A stretch of DNA of 64,000 nucleotides from Naegleria gruberi (lineage: Eukaryota), in the NCBI GenBank assembly GCA_000004985.1, contig GG738928.1; one strand, given 5' to 3'. The notes beneath the pieces were generated by a model that saw only the letters and a program-made list of their open reading frames with translations, ran no database searches and was not told where the DNA came from. A program made the translations under genes and the position numbers. Below, in pieces: positions 29,733 through 64,000 of this stretch. The stretch's first letter is position 1. Each line of letters begins with the position of its first letter.

Positions 29733-31778
29733 ATGCCTTTAAATGCATCGAATGTATCCAACAGAAGTAAGGATGATGTGATCATCGAGGATGGGTATAC
29801 AGCATCTTCATCGTTATCGTCATCCTCATTATCGTTATTAAGGGCAGGTGATAGTAAAAGCTGCAGTAGCTGTTCAATAGAAGCAGCAACTCCATGGAAA
29901 CAAGATACATCCTCATCATCAACATCAGATGACTTCATAATTCCTATTCGGAATGGTAGGAGCAACTCTCGCCAATTCATAAAAACACCATCCTTTTCAT
30001 CCCTTTCAACAATAATAGATTCTTCACTTCCATCAACGCCTAAATCATTGCCTTCATCACCATCATCATTACAAAATCATCAAGAAGGAACAGAACCACC
30101 TCTTACTGATACTCTCCTAGTTAAATCGATGAGCGAATGTAAGAATGACATGGAGAGGGGCATGTTGAACATGTTGGCTGATAAGAAGAATCTTCAGAGA
30201 TTGGTCGGAATTCTCTTCATCTTTGCCACTCTACAAAGTGTTCAACAAATGACACTCTATGAAAATTTATTGAATATTGCCTTTTTCCTTGTTCAGTGCC
30301 TTAATAATTATTTAAGACAAACTAATAATGATACAGCTCTCACCTATGAGGAATCATTCAAACATTTGGATAAAAGAGAAATTATAAGAACTGTTTTTTC
30401 AATGGTCATGTACACTTTGAGAATGATGTATCTTCCCAAACACAAGATGATTTTCCTTCCAGTGCTTTTTATTTGGTTTGCAGGAGCTAACAAACTATAT
30501 ATCTACTCTACATTTTGGGGATTACTACCCACTTACTATGCTTCAGTGATGTATATATCGTTGGCTTGCTATTTTGGATTTTATGAATTGTTAGAGAATG
30601 GGTACACTGAGACATTTCTAAATTTAATGATGGATTACTTTATTTTGGTGGCTGTGGTGTGGATGTGGACATATTATCTGGTTAATGTAACTGGATTCTT
30701 GAAACACAAAGTGGACAAACTGAAGGAAACAAGGAAACGTTTGGAAAGTGCTTTGGAAGCACGAAGTAGATTCATTGCACATGTGAGTCATGAATTCCGT
30801 TGTCCAATCATGTCCAGCATTGGGTGTTTAGAATTGTTGAAAGAAACTCCTCTGAATGAGAAACAAAATGATCTCGTAGATACAATAGTTTCATCGAATA
30901 GTGTCATTCTTCTATTGATTGAAGACATTTTACAAATTGTTAAAATTGAACATGAAAGTAAGGGTGCAAAGAAGGAAGATACAAATATTCAACCTTTCAA
31001 TATTTTCGAATCATTGAAATCGCTGAAAGGAATAATTTCTGGTTATGCTTCGAATTTTAAGGTTAAGCTTAATTTGGAAATTGATGAAGGAATTAAGAAC
31101 TTGACAGTTTTATCAAATCCTTCAAAGATCCATCAAATACTTTCTAATTTGCTGACGAATGCAGTGAAAGCATCAAAGAAAGATGATGATGTTTGGCTTA
31201 AATGCAATATTTTGGAAAAGAAAGATGATGAAACTGTAAAGATTAGATTTACTTGTCAAGATTTTGGATGTGGAATTCCTCCTAATTTGTTGGAATCTAT
31301 ATTTGAACCCTTTGTACAATTGCAAAATAATTCACAATCAAAAGTACCTAGCTCTGGGCTAGGATTGACTACAGTATCTCATTTAATCAAGACATTGAAT
31401 GGAACTATTAACGTTGAATCACAGGTTGGAATAGGAAGCTCATTTACAGTTGACTTGGCTTTTAAAATTGTTCCAAACGAGGTAAAATATAAAGTTCAAG
31501 AAAATGTTGTTGTAGAAGAAAAGAGATCGAAACTACACTTGAACGTTCACAAGAATTACTTGAACCTGATGTCACATTTAGAAGAAGGTGAAAAGGAAAT
31601 GGAAGAAACTCCAAAATTCAATTCCAATGTTTTGATAGCTGAAGATAATCCAATCAATAGAAAAGTTATTGTAAAGATGATTAATAGTATGGGAAGTGAA
31701 ACTGATTTTGTTTGTGATGGAAAGGAATTGGTTGAAAAGTTTAATCCAAGCACTCACAAAGTTGTATTTACTGATATG
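29733..31778 (+). CDS. Hybrid histidine kinase, exon 1 of 2 (S/T-rich N-terminus, multi-TM sensor region, HisKA, HATPase_c, first half of receiver)
   Basis: H-box FIAHVSHEFRCPIMS. N-box LLTNAVKAS, G1 DFGCGI, G2 SGLGLT. Receiver start VLIAEDNPINRKV…VVFTDM. At least 5 hydrophobic helices lie between residues 200 and 330. Donor ATG|GTAGGT. Confidence 0.85.
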
Positions 31779-31824
31779 GTAGGTAGCTCAAATTTCGTTT
31801 TTTAAGGTCTAATAACAATAATAG

Positions 31825-32010
31825 AATATGCCAAATATGAACGGATTAGAAGCAGCCAAGAAATTAAGAGAAAAATTTGGAAATACTTTCAGGATTTATC
31901 TCTTGACAGGAAATGTCACAATTTCATTATCTGATGAAATTGGTGTGTTTGATGGAGTGTTAACTAAACCTTGTTCTAAACAGGATTTGAAAAAATGTTT
32001 GGAAAATTAG
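31825..32010 (+). CDS. Hybrid histidine kinase, exon 2 of 2 (rest of receiver domain)
   Basis: 46-nt intron (31779-31824) ending AATAATAG. Encodes NMPNMNGLEAAKKLRE…LLTGNV…LTKPCSKQDLKKCLEN. Stop TAG at 32008-32010. Confidence 0.8.
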   Translation, partial: NMPNMNGLEAAKKLREKFGNTFRIYLLTGNVTISLSDEIGVFDGVLTKPCSKQDLKKCLEN

Positions 32011-32730: not shown

Positions 32731-33165
32731 TTAACAACCTCCTCTCAGTCTCAACACTAAATGCACAGTTGAATCCTTTTGAAGATTGTAATCACTAACT
32801 GTTCTTCCATCTTCCAATTGTTTTCCTGCATAAATCAATCGTTGTTGATCTGATGGAATTCCCTCCTTATCAAATATCTTTTGTTTCAAATGTTCAACAG
32901 TATCATTCGATTCCATTTCAATTGTAATTGTCTTTCCAGTTAGGGTTTTTACAAAAAGTTGCATTCCTCCTCTCAATCTCAATACCAAATGAAGTGTTGA
33001 ATCTTTTTGAATGCTATAATCATTAATAGTTCTTCCATCTTCTAATTGTTTACCTGCAAAGATGAGTCTTTGTTGATCGGATGGAATTCCTTCCTTATCT
33101 TGAACTTTTCTCTTGACATTTTCAATTGAGTCATTATGGAATTTCCCTTGAAAATCTTCAACAAT
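32731..33165 (-). CDS. Divergent di-ubiquitin-like open frame (5'-truncated Ub-like unit, then a full Ub-like unit ending RLRGG-C); possible pseudogene or missing upstream exon
   Basis: Unit 2 is [77 protein letters not shown], about 75% identical to canonical ubiquitin. Unit 1 starts at [28 protein letters not shown]… directly after an in-frame TAA (33166-33168) and has no ATG. Confidence 0.55.
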
Positions 33166-34101
33166 TTAACTGAAACAATTCGAAGTATTTTTAGAAAAGT
33201 GTTCAAGTGTTGCTAACTTTTTTTAAGGACATGTTGAACAACTTTGTTTCACGACGCAAATTGTTGACTTGCTGTTCATTCATTGTAACTGCAACCAGCA
33301 AAAAGCATCAAGAATTATCCTCTATGAATTTTCTTGATAGAAAGTGTTGATTTTCCTTCAAGTTTACTCGAATTGTTCTTTTCAGCATGCATCGTGTGAT
33401 AAACAAGCTAGCACTTTTCGCTTGTGAAATCTATTTCCTGTTGTTCTTGTTCGAAATTAGTGATATTTTAAACTATTACAAACTAACCATACAACCTCAT
33501 TCCCATTTCATCATCAAGTAGTAAAGCGAGTGAAGTTTTTCTTGAATTCCACCATTAAGAACAAGGTAGGAAGGTAATCAATTCGAAGTACATGTTGTTT
33601 CAAATATTGGGGATTGGTTTAATCTGCATGTAAACTCGTATTCAAATCATATATGATGATTGTCCATGTGTACATGTCCACATGAAGTGGTAATTTTTTA
33701 GTCAGTTATCAATTTATTAATCACACAAGTTTCAATGAGTTCCCATTCAATGGATTGAAGCTGATGTGATCATGACGGTTAAAAGAGAATATTGTAAACT
33801 AAATATCCTCCCTATTACAATAATCCCACTTTTGCTGTATCCTATTCGATAGTAAGATGCATTGGAAGAAACTGAGGTGTTACCATTCCTCTTACTGACT
33901 TCTCAATAAGGTTGTTCCACAAATGTTCAACCAATTCAATTCTCAGAAAACCATTGAACTCTATTAAACTCCATTGTAACTGTTGTAATCTTATTCTTTA
34001 AAAATTGCTATAAATTCATATTACCATTCATTCAATCATTAAACAAATCAAAAAACAAATTCAACAGCTGAATAACTCAAAAACTATTAAAATCTTAAGA
34101 A

Positions 34102-34638
34102 ATGACTGAACAAACTCACGAAGAATTATTCAACCAAAACATGTGTGGAAGTGGTTTGGCATTCAAGAAGGTAGTTCGTGAATTATTCAACAATCGAATT
34201 GTTCCTGCTACTAAGAATCTTCAACAAGTCAATCCAAAGATGATCATCTTGTTGGATTGGGCTTCTCTTGCTGCATTGCCAACTGAAACCAAGTACAAGT
34301 ATGGTGATAGATTTGCTGAAGATACCTTGTTGAATAATTGTATCAAATTCTTAACCGAATGTCCAAGATTGAGCAATATGGGTGAAATTGGAAAGGTTTT
34401 CATCAAGGATCCTGATTGTAAGGATGCTTTCATGGGATTGGAAAAGTTGATTTTCAGAGTTGTTCACAATGCTGATAGTAAGGATTCTTCTGGTTTCCTT
34501 GGCTATTCTTACAAGGTTAATGGTTCTGATTTCGTTGTCACTTTGGAATGCAATTTGACTCTTGTTATGAAGGTTGCCAATGAAAGACAAAGTCCATCTG
34601 CTGATTCAGAAGCTAAAAAGTTGATTAATGCTTTCTAA
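34102..34638 (+). CDS. Hypothetical protein (178 aa)
   Basis: Clean single ORF with ATG in A-rich context. No recognisable motif. Confidence 0.5.
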   Translation: MTEQTHEELFNQNMCGSGLAFKKVVRELFNNRIVPATKNLQQVNPKMIILLDWASLAALPTETKYKYGDRFAEDTLLNNCIKFLTECPRLSNMGEIGKVFIKDPDCKDAFMGLEKLIFRVVHNADSKDSSGFLGYSYKVNGSDFVVTLECNLTLVMKVANERQSPSADSEAKKLINAF

Positions 34639-35648: not shown

Positions 35649-36725
35649 TTAGTGTCTTGGACCGTAGTCTCTACTGTCTCTAGGACGAGATTCAAACTCA
35701 TTACGAGATGATCCTTGATTGTTGTTCTTATTTGAATCATTGGTTGTTCTTCCATATGAAGGTCTATCAGAATAATTTCCATAAGATTGATGTCTGTCAT
35801 AATATGCTCCTCCTCTATTGTTGTTGTTATTGTAAGAACGAGGTGGTGGAATTTCAATTTGATTTGAATTATCAGACACTCTACCATAAGAAGATGTTGG
35901 ACCATAATAGGATGAAGAATTATTTCTTGAATCAACTCTTCCATAGTGAGGTGAATTATTTTGTGGAGGAGGGTAAGGTTGATATCTATTATTATTATTG
36001 TTGGAATAGTGATAATCACGAGTTGATCGTGGATTTCTGTATGGTGATGATGGCCTAGAAGATGACGATCCATATCGATCTCGATCATCTCGGAATGGAG
36101 GAGAAGGTGGAGAATAATTATCAGAGTGACGATGATGATCTGATCCATTGTTTCCTCCACGATGATAGTCATTATTATAGGATGATGATCTGCTACTATC
36201 ACGATCATTATCATAAGATCTTCTACCAGACATTGAACCTCCTCCTCTTGGTTCTCTTCCACCTCTTGGTCCTCGTTTCTTTAGCATCTTTATATAATCA
36301 TCTCTCTTCATACCACCATCTTTTCCTCTTCCGTATTGTCTCCCTTCTACGAAACCTGTATCGATGGCAATTTTAAGAGCACGATTATTTAATTTACATC
36401 CTCTACAATATTTAACGCATTCCTCTGCATCGGATCTGTGATAGAACTCAACAAAACAAAATCCACAAGGTGTTAACGTATTTCTATTTAAACCCATTAC
36501 AACTCGCTTAACTTCTCCACATTTTTCAAACAATTCGTATATTTGCTCCTCCTTGGTATAAAAACTTAGATTTTCTACATAGATTGTTGAAGATTGAGAA
36601 AGTGCCCTCTCGAAATCCTCTTCATTTCCGCCCTCATTTACATAGTGTTTTAATAAATATTCATATTCTCTCTTGCTTCCGTGAAAAAATTTTAAAGGAT
36701 GATGAGCTTCGAGAAGATGAGCCAT
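35649..36725 (-). CDS. Nuclear cap-binding protein subunit 2 (CBP20/NCBP2) with long RG/RS/Tyr-rich C-terminal tail
   Basis: [61 protein letters not shown]…[20 protein letters not shown] is the CBP20 RRM almost motif for motif. The track start at 36788 is a GTG; the real start is ATG at 36725 (AAAAAAAATGGCT; MAHLLEA…). Confidence 0.85.
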
Positions 36726-37056
36726 TTTTTTTGTATCTAAATTTTTATTCTTCCCCTTCAACATTAATTCATCGAGCCTTCTTTGCACAAAGGAATATCA
36801 ACACCACAAACATAGCTTAGCATAGCAGACAAAGAGGCTTTGACAGAGTTGTGGATTCTTTGCCATCACCCTTGACTAGACATGGTACAAGAAAACATTT
36901 TGCACAACATTGGAATGCCCTTTGAAATGAATTATCATAACATACACACCATTAATACCTTACTGCCCTCTTATTGTGACAGGTCCATTTATCTATTGTT
37001 TATTGTCACAGCACAGTATGAGGACACAGTAATGAATTAACATCTTCTTTTAAAAA

Positions 37057-40000
37057 ATGCCTCAAGATAGAAGGGCCAACCTCTTGCTCTTGATTATCAC
37101 AGTTATTTTGTGTTTCGCAGCAACGGCCGACTTGTCTAAGGGAATTTTAACGGAGGCAGAATATCAAACCTACATCTCCAATTCATGCCCTTCTAAGCCT
37201 CTCTCCACTGATGCTTGGTACTCTGAGGAAAGTAACTTGATAAATATTATTCTTGCGGGTGATAATTCAAAGCTTCCTCTGATCTACCCTCAGGAGTATT
37301 CGACGAATAACACTATTGTAAGGGATGATATTCTCAATACAACTACAACAAGCAACTCTTCACCAGCAACAACAATATTACAATCAGGAAACAATACAAC
37401 AGTGAACAACTCCTCCTCAACAAGCAACACAACTATTACCATTATTCAAGGGTGGGATGATCTTCTCAAAGTTCTTAATGAGACTTTGAAACCCAACGCT
37501 ACCCTCGCTGATAACTCAACAAGTGGAAATAATAGTTCTCTAGGATCGAATGGTTCAATCATTTTTAATTCCACCAATTCACAAACAACTACTAATGGAA
37601 ATGTACCTCTGTTGAATACTACCCTTAACTCAACCACAAACTCTAGCCCTTCTGTTGGAACAAATACAACAAATACTCAGTTATCCTCCAATACAACCCC
37701 TAGTGTTATTTCGAATAGTACTGGTACAGCTTCGACAATCAATTCCACTAATGCTAACCTGAACACAGTGAATGGAACAAGCGGAAGTACAGAAATTGGT
37801 TCGACCTATGGATCCAACAGCACTTCTGGTCAAGGTAATAGCACAACCACGAACACGCCATTTGGTTCTAACTCTAATTCCATAGGATCAACAATAGTAA
37901 CTAACGGAACTGTTGCAGCCGGTGCAATTTCTAGTTCAACAGTAACCTCAAACGGTGGGTATGTTGGCTCCAATACCTCTGGTTCAATAAGCACAACTTC
38001 AACTGGATCTAATAGCCAAGGATTAGGATCTAGCTCCTCCACAAATGTCTCTGCTAATAATACTGCAACTGTTAGTGGACCTTCAAGTGGATTTAATTCT
38101 ACTTCTGGGGCAACTTCTGGGGCAAACAACGGTTCCGTTACAACAAGTACTGGAACAAATGGTCAATCAACTACTGGAACAAGCTTAGGATCGACCTCCT
38201 CTAATGGTTCAAACAGTGGTTCAACTAATGGAACAAATACAGGTTCCGTTTCCACAAGTACTGGAACAAGTGGTTCCTCTTCAAGTGTTTCAACAAACTC
38301 AGGATCAACAAGCTCTTCTAACTCTGGTTCAACTAATGGAGCAAACACCGGATCAATTGGCGTTTCTAACTCTGGATCTTCTATTGGAACAAATACTGGT
38401 TCTGGTTCAACAATCACTGGAACCAGTTCAGGTTCTTCAACTAGTTCTAACACCAATACAGGAAACAATAATGTCTCCAATTCTGGATTAAATGGTCAAG
38501 GAACAAATTCTACTTCAAGCTCCTCAGCTACTAACATTTCAGGTTCAAATAATACTGGATCAAGTAATCAAGGAAGTAATTCAGGATCCAGTTCTACTGG
38601 AACAAGTAGCACTTCAAGTACTGGATTAAATGGTAGCGTTTCTTCAGGTGGTTCTAACACTGGAACAAATGGAGTATCAAATAATGGATCAGCAACTGGC
38701 ATTGCTCCCAATGTCTCTGGAACAAGTGGTAGTTCCTCTTCAAGTGTTTCAAACACTGTCTCCTCAAACTCAGGTTCGAGTGCTAATAATACTTCAACTG
38801 TTAGTGGACCTTCAGCAGGATCTAATTCTACTTCTGGAACAACTTCTGGAGCAAACAGCGGTTCCGTTACAACAAGTACTGGAACAAACGGTCAATCAAA
38901 TTCTGGAGCTAGCTCAGGATCTACCTCCTCTGGCTCTTCAAGTGGTTCGAACAGTGGTCCTGGCTCTAATACTGGTACAAGTGATACTAATACAGGGTCA
39001 ACAAGCTCTTCTAACTCTGGTTCTTCGAGTGGAGCAAGTACTGGTTCAGGTTCTTCAACAAATTCTAACACTAATCCAGGAAACAACAATGTCTCCAATT
39101 CTGGATTAAATGGTCAAGGAACAAATTCTGCTTTAGGCTCCTCAGCTACTAACATTTCAGGAGCAAGTAATACTGGACAAGTTCTACATCTCAAGCTCTG
39201 GATTAAGTAATTCAGGATCCAGTTCTACTGGATCAAGTAGCACTTCAAGTACTGGATTAAATGGTGGCTCTTCTACAGGTGGTTCTAACACTGGAACAAA
39301 TGGAGTATCAAATAATGGATCAGCAACTGGCATTGCTCCCAATGTCTCTGGAACAAGTGGTAGTTCCTCTTCAAGTGTTTCAAACACTGTCTCCGCAAGC
39401 TCAGGTTCGAGTGCTAATACTTCAACTGTTAGTGGACCTTCAGCAGGATCTAATTCTACTTCTGGAACAACTTCTGGAGCAAACAGCGGTTCCGTTACAA
39501 CAAGTACTGGAACAAACGGTCAATCAAATTCTGGAGCTAGCTCAGGATCTACCTCCTTTGGCTCTTCAAGTGGTTCTACCAATGCTGGACCCAATTCTAG
39601 TAGTAATTCAACGGTCAGTGGTGGTTCTTCAAATGCATCTGGTTTTACAAGTACTGGACCGAATACTCAAGGTGGTTCATTATCTGACTCCTCAAATACT
39701 GGAACTGCTAGCACTCCAAGTGCTGGATTAAGTAGTGGATCTTCTTCAGGTGGTTCTAACACTGGGACAAATGGAGCATCAAATAATGTTTCTGGAACAA
39801 ATGGTGGTTCATCTTCTAGTGTAACAAACAGTGGTTCTGGTTCTAATACTGGTATTAATACTGGAACAATTGGCGTTTCTAACTCTGGATCTTCTATAGG
39901 AACTGGGGTAAATACTGGTGCTGGAGCAAGTTCAGGATCTTCAACAAATTCTAACATCAATACAGGAACCAATAGTGTCTCCAATTCTGGATTAAATGGT

Positions 40001-42713
40001 CAAGGAACAAATTCTACTTCAAGCTCCTCAGCTACTAACATTTCAGGTTCAAGTTATACTGGTACAGGAGGTACTACCTCTTCAAGTTCTGGATTAAGTG
40101 GTGGTTCTTCGTCAGGTAATGCTATTACTGGATCAACAACTGGCAACACTGCAAATGTCTATGGAGGAAATGGTGTTATCAATACAGGATCAACCAGCAC
40201 TGGAGCAAATACTGGTTTACCAAGCACAGGACCTTCAACTACTCAATCACTGGAACAATTGGTGTTATCAATTCAGGATCAACGAGCTCTTCTAACTCTG
40301 GATCTTCGCCTGGAGCAAATACTGGTTCTGGTACAACAATCACTGGAACTAGTTCAGGATCTTCAACAAATTCTAACACTAATACAGGAACCAATAGTGT
40401 ATCAGGTTCAAATACTAGTGGCTCTATCACAAGCCCATCCACTGTATCCACTAGCTCTTCTAACATTGGAACAAATACTGGTTCCGGTTCGAGTAATACT
40501 GGAACTTCTAGTAATGGATCAATTGTTTCAAATAGTGGCTCCACAAGTACTGAAACTACTAGCACCCCAAATACTGGATTAAATGGTGGTTTTTATTCAG
40601 GTGGTTCCAACACTGGAACAAATGGAGTATCAAATAATGAATCAACAACTGGTATCACTACAAATGTTTCTGGAACAATTGGGGGTTCATCTTCTAGTGT
40701 ATCAAATAGTGGTTCTGGTTCTAATACTGGTATTAATACTGGAACAATTGGCGCTTCTAACTCTGGATCTTCTATTGGAACAAATAATGGTTCTGGTTCA
40801 ACAATCACTGGAACCAGTTCAGGATCTTCAACTAGTTCTAACATCAATACAGGAAACAATAATGTCTCCAATTCTGGATTAAATGGTCAAGGAACAAATT
40901 CTACTTCAAGCTCTTCAGCTACTAACATTTCGGGTTCAAGTAATACTGGTACAGGAGGTACTACCTCTTCAAGTTCTGGATTAAGTGGTGGTTCTTCTTC
41001 TGGTGGTTCTAACACTGGAACAACTGAATCAACAATTGGCAACACTGCAAATGTCTATGGAGGAAATGGTGTTATCAATACAGGATCAACCATTTCTGGA
41101 ACAAACACTGGTTTACCAAGCACAGGAGCATCAACTACTTCAACAGGCAATCCTGGTTCTGGTTCAGCAAACACTGGAACCACTTCAAACGGTTCTACCA
41201 ATACAGGTACCACAATTAATAGTGGTTCAGGATCTACCAATACAGGTACCACAATTAATAGTGGTTCAGTATCTGGTTCTTCAACAGGTTTAAACAACTC
41301 TGGTTCTTCAACAAATAACAGTAGCTCAACAATTTCTACCACAACAAACCCAGCCACTTCCAGTGGTTCAGGATCTTCAACAAATTCTAACACTAATACA
41401 GGAAACAATAATGTCTCCAATTCTGGATCAAATGGTCAAGGAACAAATTCTGCTTCAAGCTCTTCAGCTACTAACATTTCAGGTTCAAATACTAGTGGTT
41501 CAAGCTCATCTTCTGGTTCTTCTAACACTGGAGCAAATACTGGATTAACAAGCACAGGACCATCCAATACTCCAACCAATAATGGGGGTTCCTCTAATTC
41601 TGGGTCAAGCTCTAGTGGAACTAGTGGTTCAACTTCAGTTATTTTTGGAGCAACAAGCTCCTCCAATCCTAACTCTGGCTCTAATACTGGTACAAGTGGT
41701 GATACCAATACAGGATCAACGAGCTCTTCTAACTCTGGATCTTCGACTGGGGCAAATACTGCTTCAAGCAATGCTGGATCAGGTACAAACAATGGAAACA
41801 ATGGATCAACAAGTTCAAATAGCAATTCAACAAGTTATAGTGCTCTTGATACTCTTCGTAAAGAAATAGAACGATTAGTTACAGATATTATTGGGCGACC
41901 TGATCCAAACCTGCCAACACCAGATCTTCAAAAAGGAATAGACACACTTAAAAATGACATTCTTGGTGTCAAACCTGCCTCACCGACTACTACTAGTCTA
42001 CCACCAACTCAACAAACTCTAACAGCTCAATTAACAACTCACCAACATCAAACAATAATGTTACAAAACCTTCTAACAATACAAACACAACCACAACCCT
42101 TAACGCCTCAAAAAGCACAACCCCAACAAGGAACTCAACCACTACTTCGACTAGTGTATCAACCACAACAACCGATAGTACTTCCAATGCTATTCAGTCA
42201 AGTAATAGAAACAACAATGCTGGAAGTCCAATCAGATGTAAACAGAAATGTCCTGTTAGGTATGAACAGAAAGTGTGTATAACCAAAAGAAAAACCAGTA
42301 GTTCTTCTTCTGTTGTTGCATCCAATATTGTTGCAGTCATGGCAGAGAACATTGCCACCATTAAGAATGGATCACCTGATGGGTTAATAATTGGTTTATC
42401 TGTTGCAGGAGGTGTGTTAGCAATTCTGTGTTGTACAGGATCGTCTATCATTGGATGTGTTCTGTACGCTAAGAGAAAGAGAAATAATTTCTGGAATCTT
42501 TATGAAGATAAAAATGTCAGAATGCTTATGGAGGGTCACATTGATGAAAGTGCATATGCAGATGTTGAATTAGAGGATGATGAAGAATTTGATCCACTAG
42601 AAGCAAAATCTTCTTACTCTGGCTCTAATGAAGATGATTTCAAGTTTGACGAAGAATCAGAAGAATCTTCAGAATCAGATAAACAAGAAGAAGAAATTGA
42701 ATTTGAATATTAA
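37057..42713 (+). CDS. Mucin-like type-I membrane glycoprotein (signal peptide, ~1700-aa Ser/Thr/Gly/Asn repeat region, TM helix, acidic cytoplasmic tail); reading frame broken at least 3 times
   Basis: Signal peptide MPQDRRANLLLLIITVILCFAATA. The S/T/G/N-rich frame runs 37057-39210, continues +1 from about 39190, shifts again near 40250 and again near 41995. The last segment encodes …CKQKCPVRYEQKVCITKRK, TM helix LIIGLSVAGGVLAILCCTGSSIIGCVLYA and an acidic tail ending EEEIEFEY with stop at 42711-42713. Each break looks like a 1-nt indel relative to neighbouring repeat copies. Confidence 0.6.
38040..41560 (+). repeat. Long imperfect tandem repeats (period about 640-730 bp, plus shorter internal periodicity) inside the mucin-like gene
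   Basis: The block …AATACTTCAACTGTTAGTGGACCTTCAGCAGGATCTAATTCTACTTCTGGAACAACTTCTGGAGCAAACAGCGGTTCCGTTACAACAAGTACTGGAACAAACGGTCAATCAAATTCTGGAGC recurs near 38050, 38780 and 39420. GTCTCCAATTCTGGATTAAATGGTCAAGGAACAAATTCT recurs near 38470, 39090, 39970, 40860 and 41410. Confidence 0.8.
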
Positions 42714-61902: not shown

Positions 61903-63135
61903 ATGGCTAAAAAGAAGAATAATAATAAGAATAAGAATTCAGCCTCTTCGGCAACAACACCAGTTTCACCAGTGAGTGAAGTCAGTGAGGATAATAGTAT
62001 TGAAGAAACTGTTACATCATCAACAACAATGGAAGAGGAACAAACAGTATCAACAACAACTCAAGAATCTACAATTGATGAAGCCTCCACAATAACTTCT
62101 ACCACTGAACAACAAGAAGAAGAAGAAGCCTCTGATAAAATTCAACAACCTGAAGAAGTAAATTCATCATCTACAACAACAGCCATTGTTACTGAAGGAA
62201 TACCAACAACTAACACTGTTGAAACATCTGATTCTATTACTACTACTAATACTAATACTACTACTATTGATAATAACATTCCAACAAGTAGTACAACAAC
62301 AACAACAATTGAAGAAGAAGAAGAAAAAACAAATCAAAAAAGTGAAGAAGAAATTATAACAGAAGAAATTGAAAAATTAAAAGAAGATTTAACTGATCGT
62401 GTTAAAGTAGTAAGAGAAGAATTAGAATTACAATATGAAATTGAAATTAAAAAATTACAAATTGATCATCAAGAATCTTTAAAAAAACAATTAGATTTAT
62501 ATGAAAATAAGATTAATTCACTTGTTGAAACTCATAAATATGAAATTGAACAATTAAATGCTCAATTAAAACAAAAAGATGAAGAAAATTTAAATGAATT
62601 GGAAAATATTAAATTATTAGAAATTAAATTACAAGATCAATTAAATGAAAATAATTCTAAAGATTTAATAATTAATAATTTAAATAATAATATTGAAAAT
62701 TTAAATAATAATATTAATAATTTAAAAAATGAAATTGAAATTAAAAAATCTGAATTAAAAGAAAAAAATGAAAATTCAAATGAATTAAATGAAACTATTA
62801 AAAAACATTTAGAAAAAATTCAAAATTTAGAAAGAGAAGAATTAAATTCATTACAAAAAATTAATCATTTAAATCAACAATTAAAAACAACAAGTGAAAA
62901 GAATTCTGAATATGAAAATAGAATTTTACAATTAGAAGAAGAATTAAAATCACAAAAAGAAAATGAAACAATTATTTTACATAAATATTATCATCATGCT
63001 TTATTAGCTGTAAAATTAACTTTATCAAATATTAATTTTTCAGTTCCAGATTTGTTAGATGATTGTATTAAAGAACAAGTTAAAGAAGAAGATTTAGATT
63101 CTTGGATTACAAAGAAATTAGAATTACAAAATTAA
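61903..63135 (+). CDS. Coiled-coil protein (acidic/Thr-rich N-terminus, ~250-aa heptad region)
   Basis: Single 410-aa ORF with ATG at 61903. EEIEKLKEDLTDRVKVVREELELQYEIEIKKLQ… continuous heptads. No enzymatic motif. Confidence 0.55.
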   Translation: MAKKKNNNKNKNSASSATTPVSPVSEVSEDNSIEETVTSSTTMEEEQTVSTTTQESTIDEASTITSTTEQQEEEEASDKIQQPEEVNSSSTTTAIVTEGIPTTNTVETSDSITTTNTNTTTIDNNIPTSSTTTTTIEEEEEKTNQKSEEEIITEEIEKLKEDLTDRVKVVREELELQYEIEIKKLQIDHQESLKKQLDLYENKINSLVETHKYEIEQLNAQLKQKDEENLNELENIKLLEIKLQDQLNENNSKDLIINNLNNNIENLNNNINNLKNEIEIKKSELKEKNENSNELNETIKKHLEKIQNLEREELNSLQKINHLNQQLKTTSEKNSEYENRILQLEEELKSQKENETIILHKYYHHALLAVKLTLSNINFSVPDLLDDCIKEQVKEEDLDSWITKKLELQN

Positions 63136-63269
63136 ATATTTTAATATTTATAATTATAAATAAAAAAAAACAATTTAAATTATTAAATCATAATGTGTTT
63201 TAAATTGTTGTTGATGAAGAAGAATATTTCAAAAGTTTAAATTATTATTAAATAAATTATTAATCAATT

Positions 63270-64000
63270 TTATCGTTCATTTATTTGATCATCAGATTCA
63301 TAACCAGATAATTGATTTAATTGATTATTATTATTTGGAAGTATAATTTCATTTAAAATTGTATTTAATTGATATTTTAATTCATCTTTAAATTGTTGTT
63401 GATTTATAATATTTGAATTATTATTTAAATTATTATTTAAATTATTTAATTTAAATTCAATTAAATGATTTAAAATATTTTTTAAAAAAGCATGATCATT
63501 TCCATGTAAAGAAATAAATAAATTATTAAATAATTCTAATAAATTATTATTTAAATCAATATTACTATATATATTAATTAAAGTACGTAACCATAAATCT
63601 AATTCATCTTGAGATGAACAACTCCATTCACTAATTTCACCATTTATAGTTTTAATTTCAAATCTAAATTTTAAATCATTATTTTCATTTTGTAATCTTT
63701 TTATACTTGTTATACTATTTATATCTATTATATTATATTTGGAATTTGAATCATTTCTATAATATAATTTACTTCTTTTAATTTTAACTTTGGTTTTTTG
63801 ATATCCAATTCCATTTTTACGTTTTTTAAATAAATTCCTTTTAAATCATATTTAATTATATTTTCATTTTTTTTAAAATTATTAAAATTATTATTATTTA
63901 AATTATTACTATTTATATTATTATTATTTATATTAATAATTGTATTTCTTGTTTGTTGTAAATTATTATCACTAATAGTTTGTCTATGAGTATTAAATTC
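63270..64000 (-). CDS. PH-domain protein, 3' part (gene continues 5' beyond window end); absent from the ORF track; apparent 1-nt frameshift at an A6/T6 homopolymer near 63825-63830
   Basis: Minus-strand frame from about 63846 to stop 63270-63272 reads …FKKRKNGIGYQKTKVKIKRSKLYYRNDSN…EISEWSCSSQDELDLWLRTL… (PH-domain pattern with C-terminal helix Trp). It has no ATG, TTG or GTG, so it is not in the track. A different frame is open from 64000 down to 63745 (…NENIIKYDLKGIYLKN…). Adding one A in the run gives a continuous GIYLKKRKNGIGYQ…. Confidence 0.5.

What the first reader, a model, noticed from the sequence alone, without database searches (positions are those of the whole stretch)
32731..33165. 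Highly divergent, 5'-truncated di-ubiquitin-like gene
Ubiquitin is normally almost invariant. Here the full-length unit is only about 75% identical to canonical Ub ([76 protein letters not shown] + Cys); K48, K63 and the di-Gly are retained. The upstream unit lacks its first ~15 residues, begins right after an in-frame TAA, and has no ATG. No upstream exon could be fitted in frame. It is either a decaying polyubiquitin pseudogene or a genuine Ub-like modifier gene with an undetected 5' exon.
Basis: seen in the sequence. Interest (0 to 1): 0.55.

Follow-up and report, generated by a model that had tools for sequence, protein, structure and literature searches.

The report
Truncated copy of Naegleria variant di-ubiquitin
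This is a 5'-shortened third copy of a Naegleria gruberi gene family that encodes two joined, unusually divergent ubiquitin units; its intact second unit is already annotated as a 77-residue protein, so the finding is real but fairly ordinary.

Summary
An in-frame TAA is followed by 10 unrelated codons, then ubiquitin residues 20-76 (unit A). A complete unit B follows (79% identical to human ubiquitin), then Cys and TAA.

The window is Naegleria gruberi. Unit B is exactly the annotated protein XP_002669369.1 (NAEGRDRAFT_44874). Its 90%-identity cluster holds two intact N. gruberi di-ubiquitin paralogues, XP_002678392.1 and XP_002681079.1, with the same unit order. Three-unit relatives exist in N. 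lovaniensis and N. fowleri. N. fowleri also has a canonical polyubiquitin.

The divergence is therefore a conserved family trait, not decay. Synonymous sites are saturated and dN/dS is 0.04-0.2. All seven lysines, the hydrophobic patch and LRLRGG are kept.

The truncation is specific to this copy. Codons 1-19 and the ATG of unit 1 are missing, and no ubiquitin-like N-terminal exon lies within 2.8 kb upstream.

Best reading: a partial duplicate in which unit A is an untranslated relic. Unit B is still an intact ORF that could yield a conjugatable ubiquitin variant. Whether it is expressed could not be tested. I rate it a new member of a known kind, of low to moderate interest.

The parts
32731..32733 (-). 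TAA stop codon of the gene
32734..32736 (-). Extra C-terminal Cys codon (TGT) capping the last unit. The intact paralogue P0146 also ends in GGC, and human UBB does too (own knowledge).
32737..32964 (-). Unit B, a complete 76-codon ubiquitin-variant unit with its own ATG. Together with the Cys codon and the stop it is the annotated CDS of XP_002669369.1 / NAEGRDRAFT_44874.
   Evidence: Exact match. Pfam ubiquitin positions 1-72/72. 79% identical to human ubiquitin. 96% to P0146 unit 2 and 95% to P0145 unit 2.
32965..33135 (-). Unit A remnant: codons 20-76 of the first (u1-type) unit, open and in frame with unit B, but with no start codon.
   Evidence: tblastn residues 20-76. Pfam profile positions 18-72/72 only. 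93% identical to P0145 unit 1. The direct repeat with unit B ends at 33135.
33136..33165 (-). Ten in-frame sense codons ([10 protein letters not shown]) with no significant similarity to ubiquitin codons 1-19. They are either junction sequence or a heavily decayed 5' end.
   Evidence: similarity not above chance, p about 0.15-0.25; weak MAFFT alignment.
33166..33168 (-). In-frame TAA that closes the reading frame upstream of unit A.

Best explanation
The locus is a 5'-truncated third paralogue of a Naegleria-specific variant polyubiquitin family.

Intact members in N. gruberi (XP_002678392.1 and XP_002681079.1) encode two different ubiquitin-variant units joined head to tail: a u1-type unit followed by a u2-type unit. 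Each unit is about 80-87% identical to canonical ubiquitin. This copy has lost codons 1-19 and the ATG of unit 1.

Shown:
- The remaining 57 codons of unit A have no start codon.
- No upstream ubiquitin-like exon exists.
- Unit B keeps its own ATG, all seven lysines, L8/I44/V70, R72, the LRLRGG tail and a one-residue Cys cap.

Inferred:
- Unit A is now an untranslated relic or leader.
- If the locus is transcribed, translation from the unit B ATG would give a 77-aa precursor.
- A deubiquitinase would remove the Cys to expose Gly76. The ubiquitin E1 would then activate the variant, because R72 is kept, and it would be conjugated like ubiquitin.
- The copy would therefore supply only the u2-type variant.

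Whether it is still expressed is undetermined; I put that at about even odds.
For: - Organism: the neighbouring histidine-kinase ORF is 100% identical to an N. gruberi protein.
- The unit B ORF is an exact match to XP_002669369.1. It shares a 90% cluster with the two intact di-ubiquitin paralogues.
- Unit A is 93% identical to P0145 unit 1. Unit B is 96% identical to P0146 unit 2. Unit order and the GGC end are the same.
- Family signature against canonical ubiquitin: L3, N20 and D64 in every unit of all three species that covers those positions, except Nl unit 3, which has I3 (unit A lacks residue 3).
- Relatives P0004 (N. lovaniensis) and P0016 (N. fowleri) were found.
- Among units, pS is 0.5-0.8 and pN is 0.06-0.18. 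The divergence is therefore old and constrained.
- N. fowleri also has a canonical polyubiquitin, 96% identical to human (PDB 5VIX; PMC7990177).
- No ubiquitin N-terminal coding piece lies within 2.8 kb upstream or anywhere else in the window.
- The window units show no excess of unique substitutions: none in unit A, and H25 and L26 in unit B.
Against: - There are no expression data. The gene identifiers appear in no searchable paper.
- DNA of the two paralogues could not be obtained. Branch-specific dN/dS and the exact breakpoint are therefore unknown.
- With only 2-4 amino-acid differences from the paralogues, the intact ORFs of units A and B may simply reflect a recent event.
- A transcript starting upstream of unit A would carry out-of-frame upstream ATGs (33134, 33119) before the unit B ATG.
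- In N. fowleri the corresponding last unit is itself broken, so this unit type can be dispensable.
- Two intact paralogues make this copy redundant.
Confidence: 0.55

Rival explanations
1. The whole locus is a recently formed, silent pseudogene. A partial duplication removed the promoter-proximal part and the start codon. Both units look intact only because too little time has passed for disabling mutations to accumulate.
For: - The truncation removes the ancestral start codon.
- There are only 2-4 amino-acid differences from the paralogues.
- Two intact paralogues make the copy redundant.
- The family visibly decays elsewhere: N. fowleri unit 3 carries a duplication, a stop codon and, in a second assembly, a deletion.
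- The flanks show no synteny with the N. lovaniensis and N. fowleri loci.
Against: - Unit B keeps its ATG, a full ORF, the cap residue and every functional residue.
- Neither unit has a stop or frameshift in 134 codons.
- There is no excess of unique substitutions compared with the intact paralogues.
- These points are weak if the event is recent.
Confidence: 0.35
2. It is a genuine spliced gene. A short, novel, non-ubiquitin 5' exon joins an AG acceptor at 33156/33155 or 33147/33146. The product would be a leader, then a partial ubiquitin (residues about 20-76), then a full unit B.
For: - Unit A is open for 57 codons and stays in frame with unit B.
- Thirty formal ATG...GT/AG combinations reach the frame. 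One example is ATG 33283 with donor GTGAAA at 33252 and a 97-106 nt intron.
- N. gruberi does have short introns. A 46-nt intron was verified in the neighbouring histidine-kinase gene.
Against: - No candidate exon encodes the beta1-beta2 hairpin, so unit A could not form a ubiquitin fold. A deubiquitinase would probably not release unit B.
- The candidate donors (GTGAAA, GTAAAC, GTTAGT) do not resemble the verified GTAGGT donor.
- That many GT/AG combinations are expected by chance in 900 nt of AT-rich DNA.
- The intact paralogues need no intron.
- The public annotation calls only unit B.
Confidence: 0.07
3. The truncation is an assembly artefact. Three paralogues more than 90% identical were joined or collapsed wrongly in the Sanger draft, and the real locus has a complete unit 1.
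For: Three near-identical paralogues exist. Repeats of this kind are typical sites of misassembly.
Against: - There are no Ns or gaps at the junction.
- Units A and B each carry copy-specific substitutions: R28, S38 and S60 in unit A, and H25, L26 and V56 in unit B. The sequence is therefore not a mosaic of the other two copies.
- The upstream flank is unique sequence running into the next ORF.
Confidence: 0.03

Closest known systems
N. gruberi 'polyubiquitin' XP_002678392.1 (152 aa) and XP_002681079.1 (153 aa)
   Same: They sit in the same 90% cluster. They have the same u1-type then u2-type unit order, the same L3/N20/D64 signature, and (for XP_002681079.1) the same GGC end. Identity is 93% for unit A and 95-96% for unit B.
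   Different: Both have a complete first unit starting with MQLF. The window copy lacks codons 1-19 and the start codon.
Three-unit variant ubiquitin genes of N. lovaniensis (XP_044546439.1) and N. fowleri (XP_044564088.1)
   Same: They are head-to-tail fusions of non-identical ubiquitin-variant units. Their last unit shares Y45, V56 and L61 with unit B. Non-synonymous divergence is low and synonymous sites are saturated.
   Different: They have three units rather than two. Their flanks are not syntenic with the window. In N. fowleri it is the last unit that is broken, not the first.
Canonical polyubiquitin genes (for example human UBB/UBC, yeast UBI4, N. fowleri 5VIX)
   Same: Spacer-free head-to-tail units, an LRLRGG junction, and a one-residue C-terminal cap. 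The cap is Cys, as in human UBB (own knowledge).
   Different: Canonical units are identical in protein sequence within a gene and about 96-100% conserved across eukaryotes. Here the units are 77% identical to each other and 79-84% identical to human ubiquitin.
Ubiquitin variants encoded by ubiquitin 'pseudogenes' (human UBBP4 / UbKEKS; PMC7066184), and the Arabidopsis polyubiquitin-like genes UBQ8/UBQ9 (Callis et al. 1995, own knowledge)
   Same: They are divergent ubiquitin repeats coexisting with canonical ubiquitin. They keep the di-Gly tail, and in the human case are shown to be conjugated.
   Different: UBBP4 variants differ from ubiquitin at only a few residues and are recent. The Naegleria family differs at 10-17 of 76 residues and is conserved between species. 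No conjugation data exist for it.
NEDD8/RUB1, including plant ubiquitin-RUB1 fusion genes
   Same: Y45 ('LIYAGKQL') and fusion downstream of a ubiquitin-like unit.
   Different: Unit B has R72, not the A72 that determines NEDD8 specificity. It is 79% identical to ubiquitin, whereas NEDD8 is about 58% identical (own knowledge). It is not a NEDD8.

Membership tests
Ubiquitin family (Pfam PF00240, beta-grasp) | Full-length match to the ubiquitin domain profile | tested here: met
   Unit B matches profile positions 1-72/72. The two units together score E 2.7e-53. PDB ubiquitin chains score E about 1e-37. Unit A alone matches only profile positions 18-72.
Ubiquitin proper (conjugatable modifier) | C-terminal LRLRGG with R72, exposed by removing a short extension | tested here: met
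   Both units end in LVLRLRGG. Unit B is followed by one Cys and then the stop.
Ubiquitin proper (conjugatable modifier) | K6, K11, K27, K29, K33, K48 and K63, plus the L8/I44/H68/V70 patch | tested here: met
   All are present in unit B (alignment, table). Unit A lacks K6, L8 and K11 because of the truncation.
Ubiquitin proper (conjugatable modifier) | Near-invariant sequence (about 96% or more identical to other eukaryotes) | tested here: not met
   Unit B is 79% and unit A 84% identical to human ubiquitin. N. fowleri's canonical polyubiquitin is 96% identical (PMC7990177).
Ubiquitin proper (conjugatable modifier) | Activation by E1 and conjugation to substrates | not testable with these tools
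   This needs biochemistry or di-Gly remnant proteomics.
Canonical polyubiquitin gene | Spacer-free head-to-tail repeats with a C-terminal cap residue | tested here: met
   The RGG|MQLF junction, 228-nt spacing and the Cys cap.
Canonical polyubiquitin gene | Units identical in protein sequence (concerted evolution) | tested here: not met
   Units A and B are 77% identical, with pN 0.12 and pS 0.66.
Canonical polyubiquitin gene | ORF starts at Met1 of the first unit | tested here: not met
   Unit A begins at residue 20, behind an in-frame TAA.
Naegleria variant di-/tri-ubiquitin family | L3/N20/D64 signature and u1-type unit followed by u2-type unit (I15, M17, F31, Y45, L61, V67) | tested here: met
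   Membership of the same 90% cluster as P0145 and P0146 is shown.
Naegleria variant di-/tri-ubiquitin family | Complete first unit with a start codon | tested here: not met
NEDD8/RUB1 | A72 and NEDD8-type surface residues | tested here: not met
   R72 is retained in both units. Only Y45 is shared with NEDD8.
Processed (retrotransposed) pseudogene | 3' poly(A) tract and target-site duplications | tested here: not met
   There is no A-run after the stop codon and no flanking direct repeats of note.

The most novel reading that the evidence does not exclude
Beside canonical ubiquitin, Naegleria keeps a second family of conjugation-competent ubiquitin isoforms. They are encoded as heterotypic polyproteins with distinct u1- and u2-type units and a shared L3/N20/D64 signature. 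The family has been under purifying selection since before N. gruberi, N. lovaniensis and N. fowleri diverged. The truncated copy in this window would be a live single-unit gene that supplies only the u2-type variant and so changes the ratio of the isoforms.
Probability: 0.3. Interest if true: 0.45.

Novelty: new member of a known kind. Interest (0 to 1): 0.25.

Why it matters
The truncated copy on its own matters little. It is a partial duplicate in a small gene family, and its intact half is already annotated.

The family behind it is more interesting. Ubiquitin is among the most conserved proteins known. Naegleria nevertheless keeps genes whose joined units differ from canonical ubiquitin at 10-17 of 76 positions, and differ from each other, while retaining every lysine, the recognition patches and the activation tail.

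If these variants are conjugated, they would add a layer to the ubiquitin code in a deeply branching eukaryote. This would parallel the recently recognised human UBBP4 variants.

The finding also gives a practical annotation lesson. Strong divergence in a ubiquitin-like ORF does not by itself indicate a pseudogene.

Tried and rejected
- **Upstream exon.** I scanned 2.8 kb of the minus strand in three frames for [19 protein letters not shown]-like peptides. Nothing exceeded the control distribution. An earlier slow version of the scan timed out.
- **Decayed rather than deleted 5' end.** MAFFT aligns 33148-33170 to codons 1-10 of the N. lovaniensis and N. fowleri units, followed by a 22-nt gap. 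That gap is consistent with the frame shift. However, the local alignment score is reached by 15-25% of control or shuffled 50-mers. This remains an untested hint.
- **Gene positions and DNA of N. gruberi genes.** Six look-ups found nothing on record. Paralogue DNA, branch-specific dN/dS and the breakpoint were therefore out of reach.
- **Metagenome scan for close relatives of the intact paralogue.** The best hit was 86% identical, and the hits were ordinary polyubiquitins of other eukaryotes.
- **Homologue search with the 144-aa translation.** The listed top 120 hits were mostly three-unit (about 230 aa) polyubiquitin-type proteins, and the two-unit N. gruberi paralogues did not appear among them. 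They surfaced only through the exact-sequence cluster look-up.
- **Synteny with the N. lovaniensis and N. fowleri loci.** None was found. The 178-aa neighbour is unrelated to the N. fowleri 178-aa gene.
- **Conserved upstream motif.** The motif shared by N. lovaniensis and N. fowleri is absent from the window.
- **Literature.** No paper mentions this gene's identifiers.
- **Ciliate-type genetic code (TAA = Gln).** Rejected, because the long neighbouring ORFs contain no internal TAA or TAG.
- **NEDD8 identity.** Rejected because R72 is retained.
- **Retrocopy.** Rejected because there is no poly(A) tract.

Full report
**What is in the sequence**

The feature lies on the minus strand. Reading 33168 to 32731 gives, in order:
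- an in-frame TAA (33168-33166);
- ten codons, [10 protein letters not shown] (33165-33136);
- 57 codons that align to ubiquitin residues 20-76 (unit A, 33135-32965);
- with no spacer, a full 76-codon unit starting with ATG (unit B, 32964-32737);
- one Cys codon, then TAA (32733-32731).

tblastn with canonical ubiquitin finds these two segments and nothing else in the 64-kb window. The scores are E 1e-39 for residues 1-76 and E 1e-30 for residues 20-76. Pfam PF00240 scores E 2.7e-53 with two stretches.

The two units form a direct repeat with 228-nt spacing. They are 77% identical over 170 nt, and the repeat ends exactly at codon 20.

Unit B differs from human ubiquitin at 16 of 76 positions, which is 79% identity. 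It keeps K6, K11, K27, K29, K33, K48, K63, L8, I44, H68, V70, R72 and LRLRGG. The observation therefore stands, with small corrections: 79% rather than 75% identity, and 19 rather than about 15 missing residues.

**Organism and annotation**

The neighbouring 690-aa histidine-kinase ORF is 100% identical to a Naegleria gruberi predicted protein. The unit B ORF of 77 aa is an exact match to XP_002669369.1 / EFC36625.1 / NAEGRDRAFT_44874, annotated as 'predicted protein', on a contig of the same length, 160,583 bp. The intact half of the finding is thus already an annotated gene. No searchable paper mentions its identifiers.

**The family**

The same 90%-identity cluster contains two other N. gruberi proteins annotated as polyubiquitin: XP_002678392.1 (152 aa) and XP_002681079.1 (153 aa, ending in GGC). 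Both are complete two-unit proteins.

Each has a u1-type first unit and a u2-type second unit. The u1-type reads ...[14 protein letters not shown]... and the u2-type reads ...[20 protein letters not shown]...LIYAGK...[18 protein letters not shown].

- The window's unit A is 93% identical to the first unit of XP_002678392.1.
- Unit B is 96% and 95% identical to the second units of the two paralogues.

Related three-unit genes exist in N. lovaniensis (P0004) and N. fowleri (P0016). All Naegleria variant units that cover those positions share L3, N20 and D64 against canonical ubiquitin, apart from I3 in Nl unit 3. The last units share Y45, V56 and L61 with unit B.

N. fowleri also has a canonical polyubiquitin that is 96% identical to human (PDB 5VIX; PMC7990177). 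This is therefore a separate variant family, not Naegleria's ordinary ubiquitin. That N. gruberi also has canonical ubiquitin is inferred, not shown here.

**Selection**

Nei-Gojobori comparisons among the window units and the N. lovaniensis and N. fowleri units give pS of 0.5-0.8, which is saturated, and pN of 0.06-0.18. That puts dN/dS at roughly 0.04-0.2. Unit A against unit B within the window gives pN 0.12 and pS 0.66.

The divergence from canonical ubiquitin, and between the units, is therefore old and was accumulated under purifying selection. It is not pseudogene decay.

At the protein level the window copy shows no excess of private changes. Unit A has none. Unit B has H25 and L26. 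The intact paralogue units have zero or one each.

**The truncation**

The paralogues show that the ancestral state was a complete first unit beginning with MQLF. In the window, codons 1-19 and the ATG are missing.

A three-frame scan of 2.8 kb upstream on the same strand finds nothing resembling the N-terminal hairpin above chance.

MAFFT does line up 33148-33170 with codons 1-10 of the other species' units, followed by a 22-nt gap. That would fit an internal 3n+1 deletion plus loss of the ATG. However, the score is reached by 15-25% of control 50-mers. I cannot tell a duplication breakpoint from local decay. The DNA of the two paralogues would settle it, but it could not be retrieved.

Formally, 30 ATG...GT/AG combinations can splice into the frame at two AG sites, 33156/33155 and 33147/33146. 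None supplies a ubiquitin-like N-terminus. Their donor sites also do not resemble the one intron I could verify nearby (GTAGGT...AATAG, 46 nt, in the histidine-kinase gene).

There is no poly(A) tract after the stop codon, so a retrocopy is unlikely.

**Most likely mechanism**

The locus is a partial duplicate. Unit A is a relic that cannot be translated from its own start codon. Unit B is still an intact ORF with its own ATG.

If the locus is transcribed, the 77-aa product would be a ubiquitin-variant precursor. A deubiquitinase would remove the Cys cap. R72 and the LRLRGG tail would allow activation by the ubiquitin E1. All lysines and recognition patches are present for chain building and recognition. 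These steps follow from established knowledge of ubiquitin processing and were not tested here.

Several points argue against a live gene:
- the copy is redundant with two intact paralogues;
- a long leader would carry out-of-frame upstream ATGs;
- the event may be too recent for decay to show;
- in N. fowleri the equivalent last unit is itself disrupted. It carries a 26-nt duplication and a CAA to TAA change, plus a further 33-nt deletion in a second, low-coverage assembly.

My estimates are about 0.55 for 'relic plus a still-coding unit B', 0.35 for 'entirely dead', 0.07 for a spliced gene and 0.03 for an assembly artefact.

**Comparison with known systems**

The locus works like, and derives from, a polyubiquitin gene. 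It has head-to-tail units, an RGG|M junction and a one-residue cap. It fails two defining features of canonical polyubiquitin: identical units and near-invariant sequence.

It is not NEDD8, because R72 is kept.

The closest analogues are ubiquitin variants encoded by ubiquitin 'pseudogenes' in humans (UBBP4/UbKEKS, PMC7066184) and the Arabidopsis polyubiquitin-like genes (own knowledge). The truncated copy is a new member of that known kind.

**Verdict**

The divergence is a conserved family trait, the truncation is copy-specific, and the intact half is already annotated. Interest is low to moderate. The conserved Naegleria ubiquitin-variant family is the part worth following up.

Noticed in passing
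window 29733-32010 (+), intron 31779-31824: The public 690-aa model of the hybrid histidine kinase reads into a 46-nt intron (GTAGGT...AATAG) and stops there. Joining ...FTDM|NMPNMNG... restores a complete receiver domain: Pfam Response_reg positions 1-110/111 at 70.5 bits, against 23.5 bits unspliced. The true CDS then ends at 32010.
   Followed up: yes
L002 10457-10740 and L003 about 2656-2920 (N. fowleri): The third unit of the N. fowleri variant tri-ubiquitin gene is disrupted by a 26-nt tandem duplication (a frameshift) and a CAA to TAA change at Q49. A second, low-coverage assembly has an additional 33-nt deletion. The annotated 202-aa protein therefore ends in a junk tail.
   Followed up: partly
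L001 3929-4171 and 696-2233 (N. lovaniensis): The third unit of the N. lovaniensis gene begins with Arg instead of Met and ends with a four-residue cap, YYLL. A DDE_Tnp_4 transposase gene lies about 1.2 kb upstream of the gene, near the contig end.
   Followed up: no
window 33042-33134 (-): An out-of-frame ATG-initiated ORF ([30 protein letters not shown]) overlaps unit A. It would act as an upstream ORF for unit B on any transcript that starts upstream of 33134.
   Followed up: no
window 36001-42000 and 62001-64000: Base composition is uneven. GC rises to 0.38-0.415 at 36-42 kb and drops to 0.18 at 62-64 kb, against about 0.31 elsewhere.
   Followed up: no
window 34102-34638 (+): The 178-aa ORF that is divergent from the ubiquitin-like gene has no Pfam match. 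It is unrelated to the 178-aa gene near the N. fowleri locus, and its exact product is not on record.
   Followed up: partly
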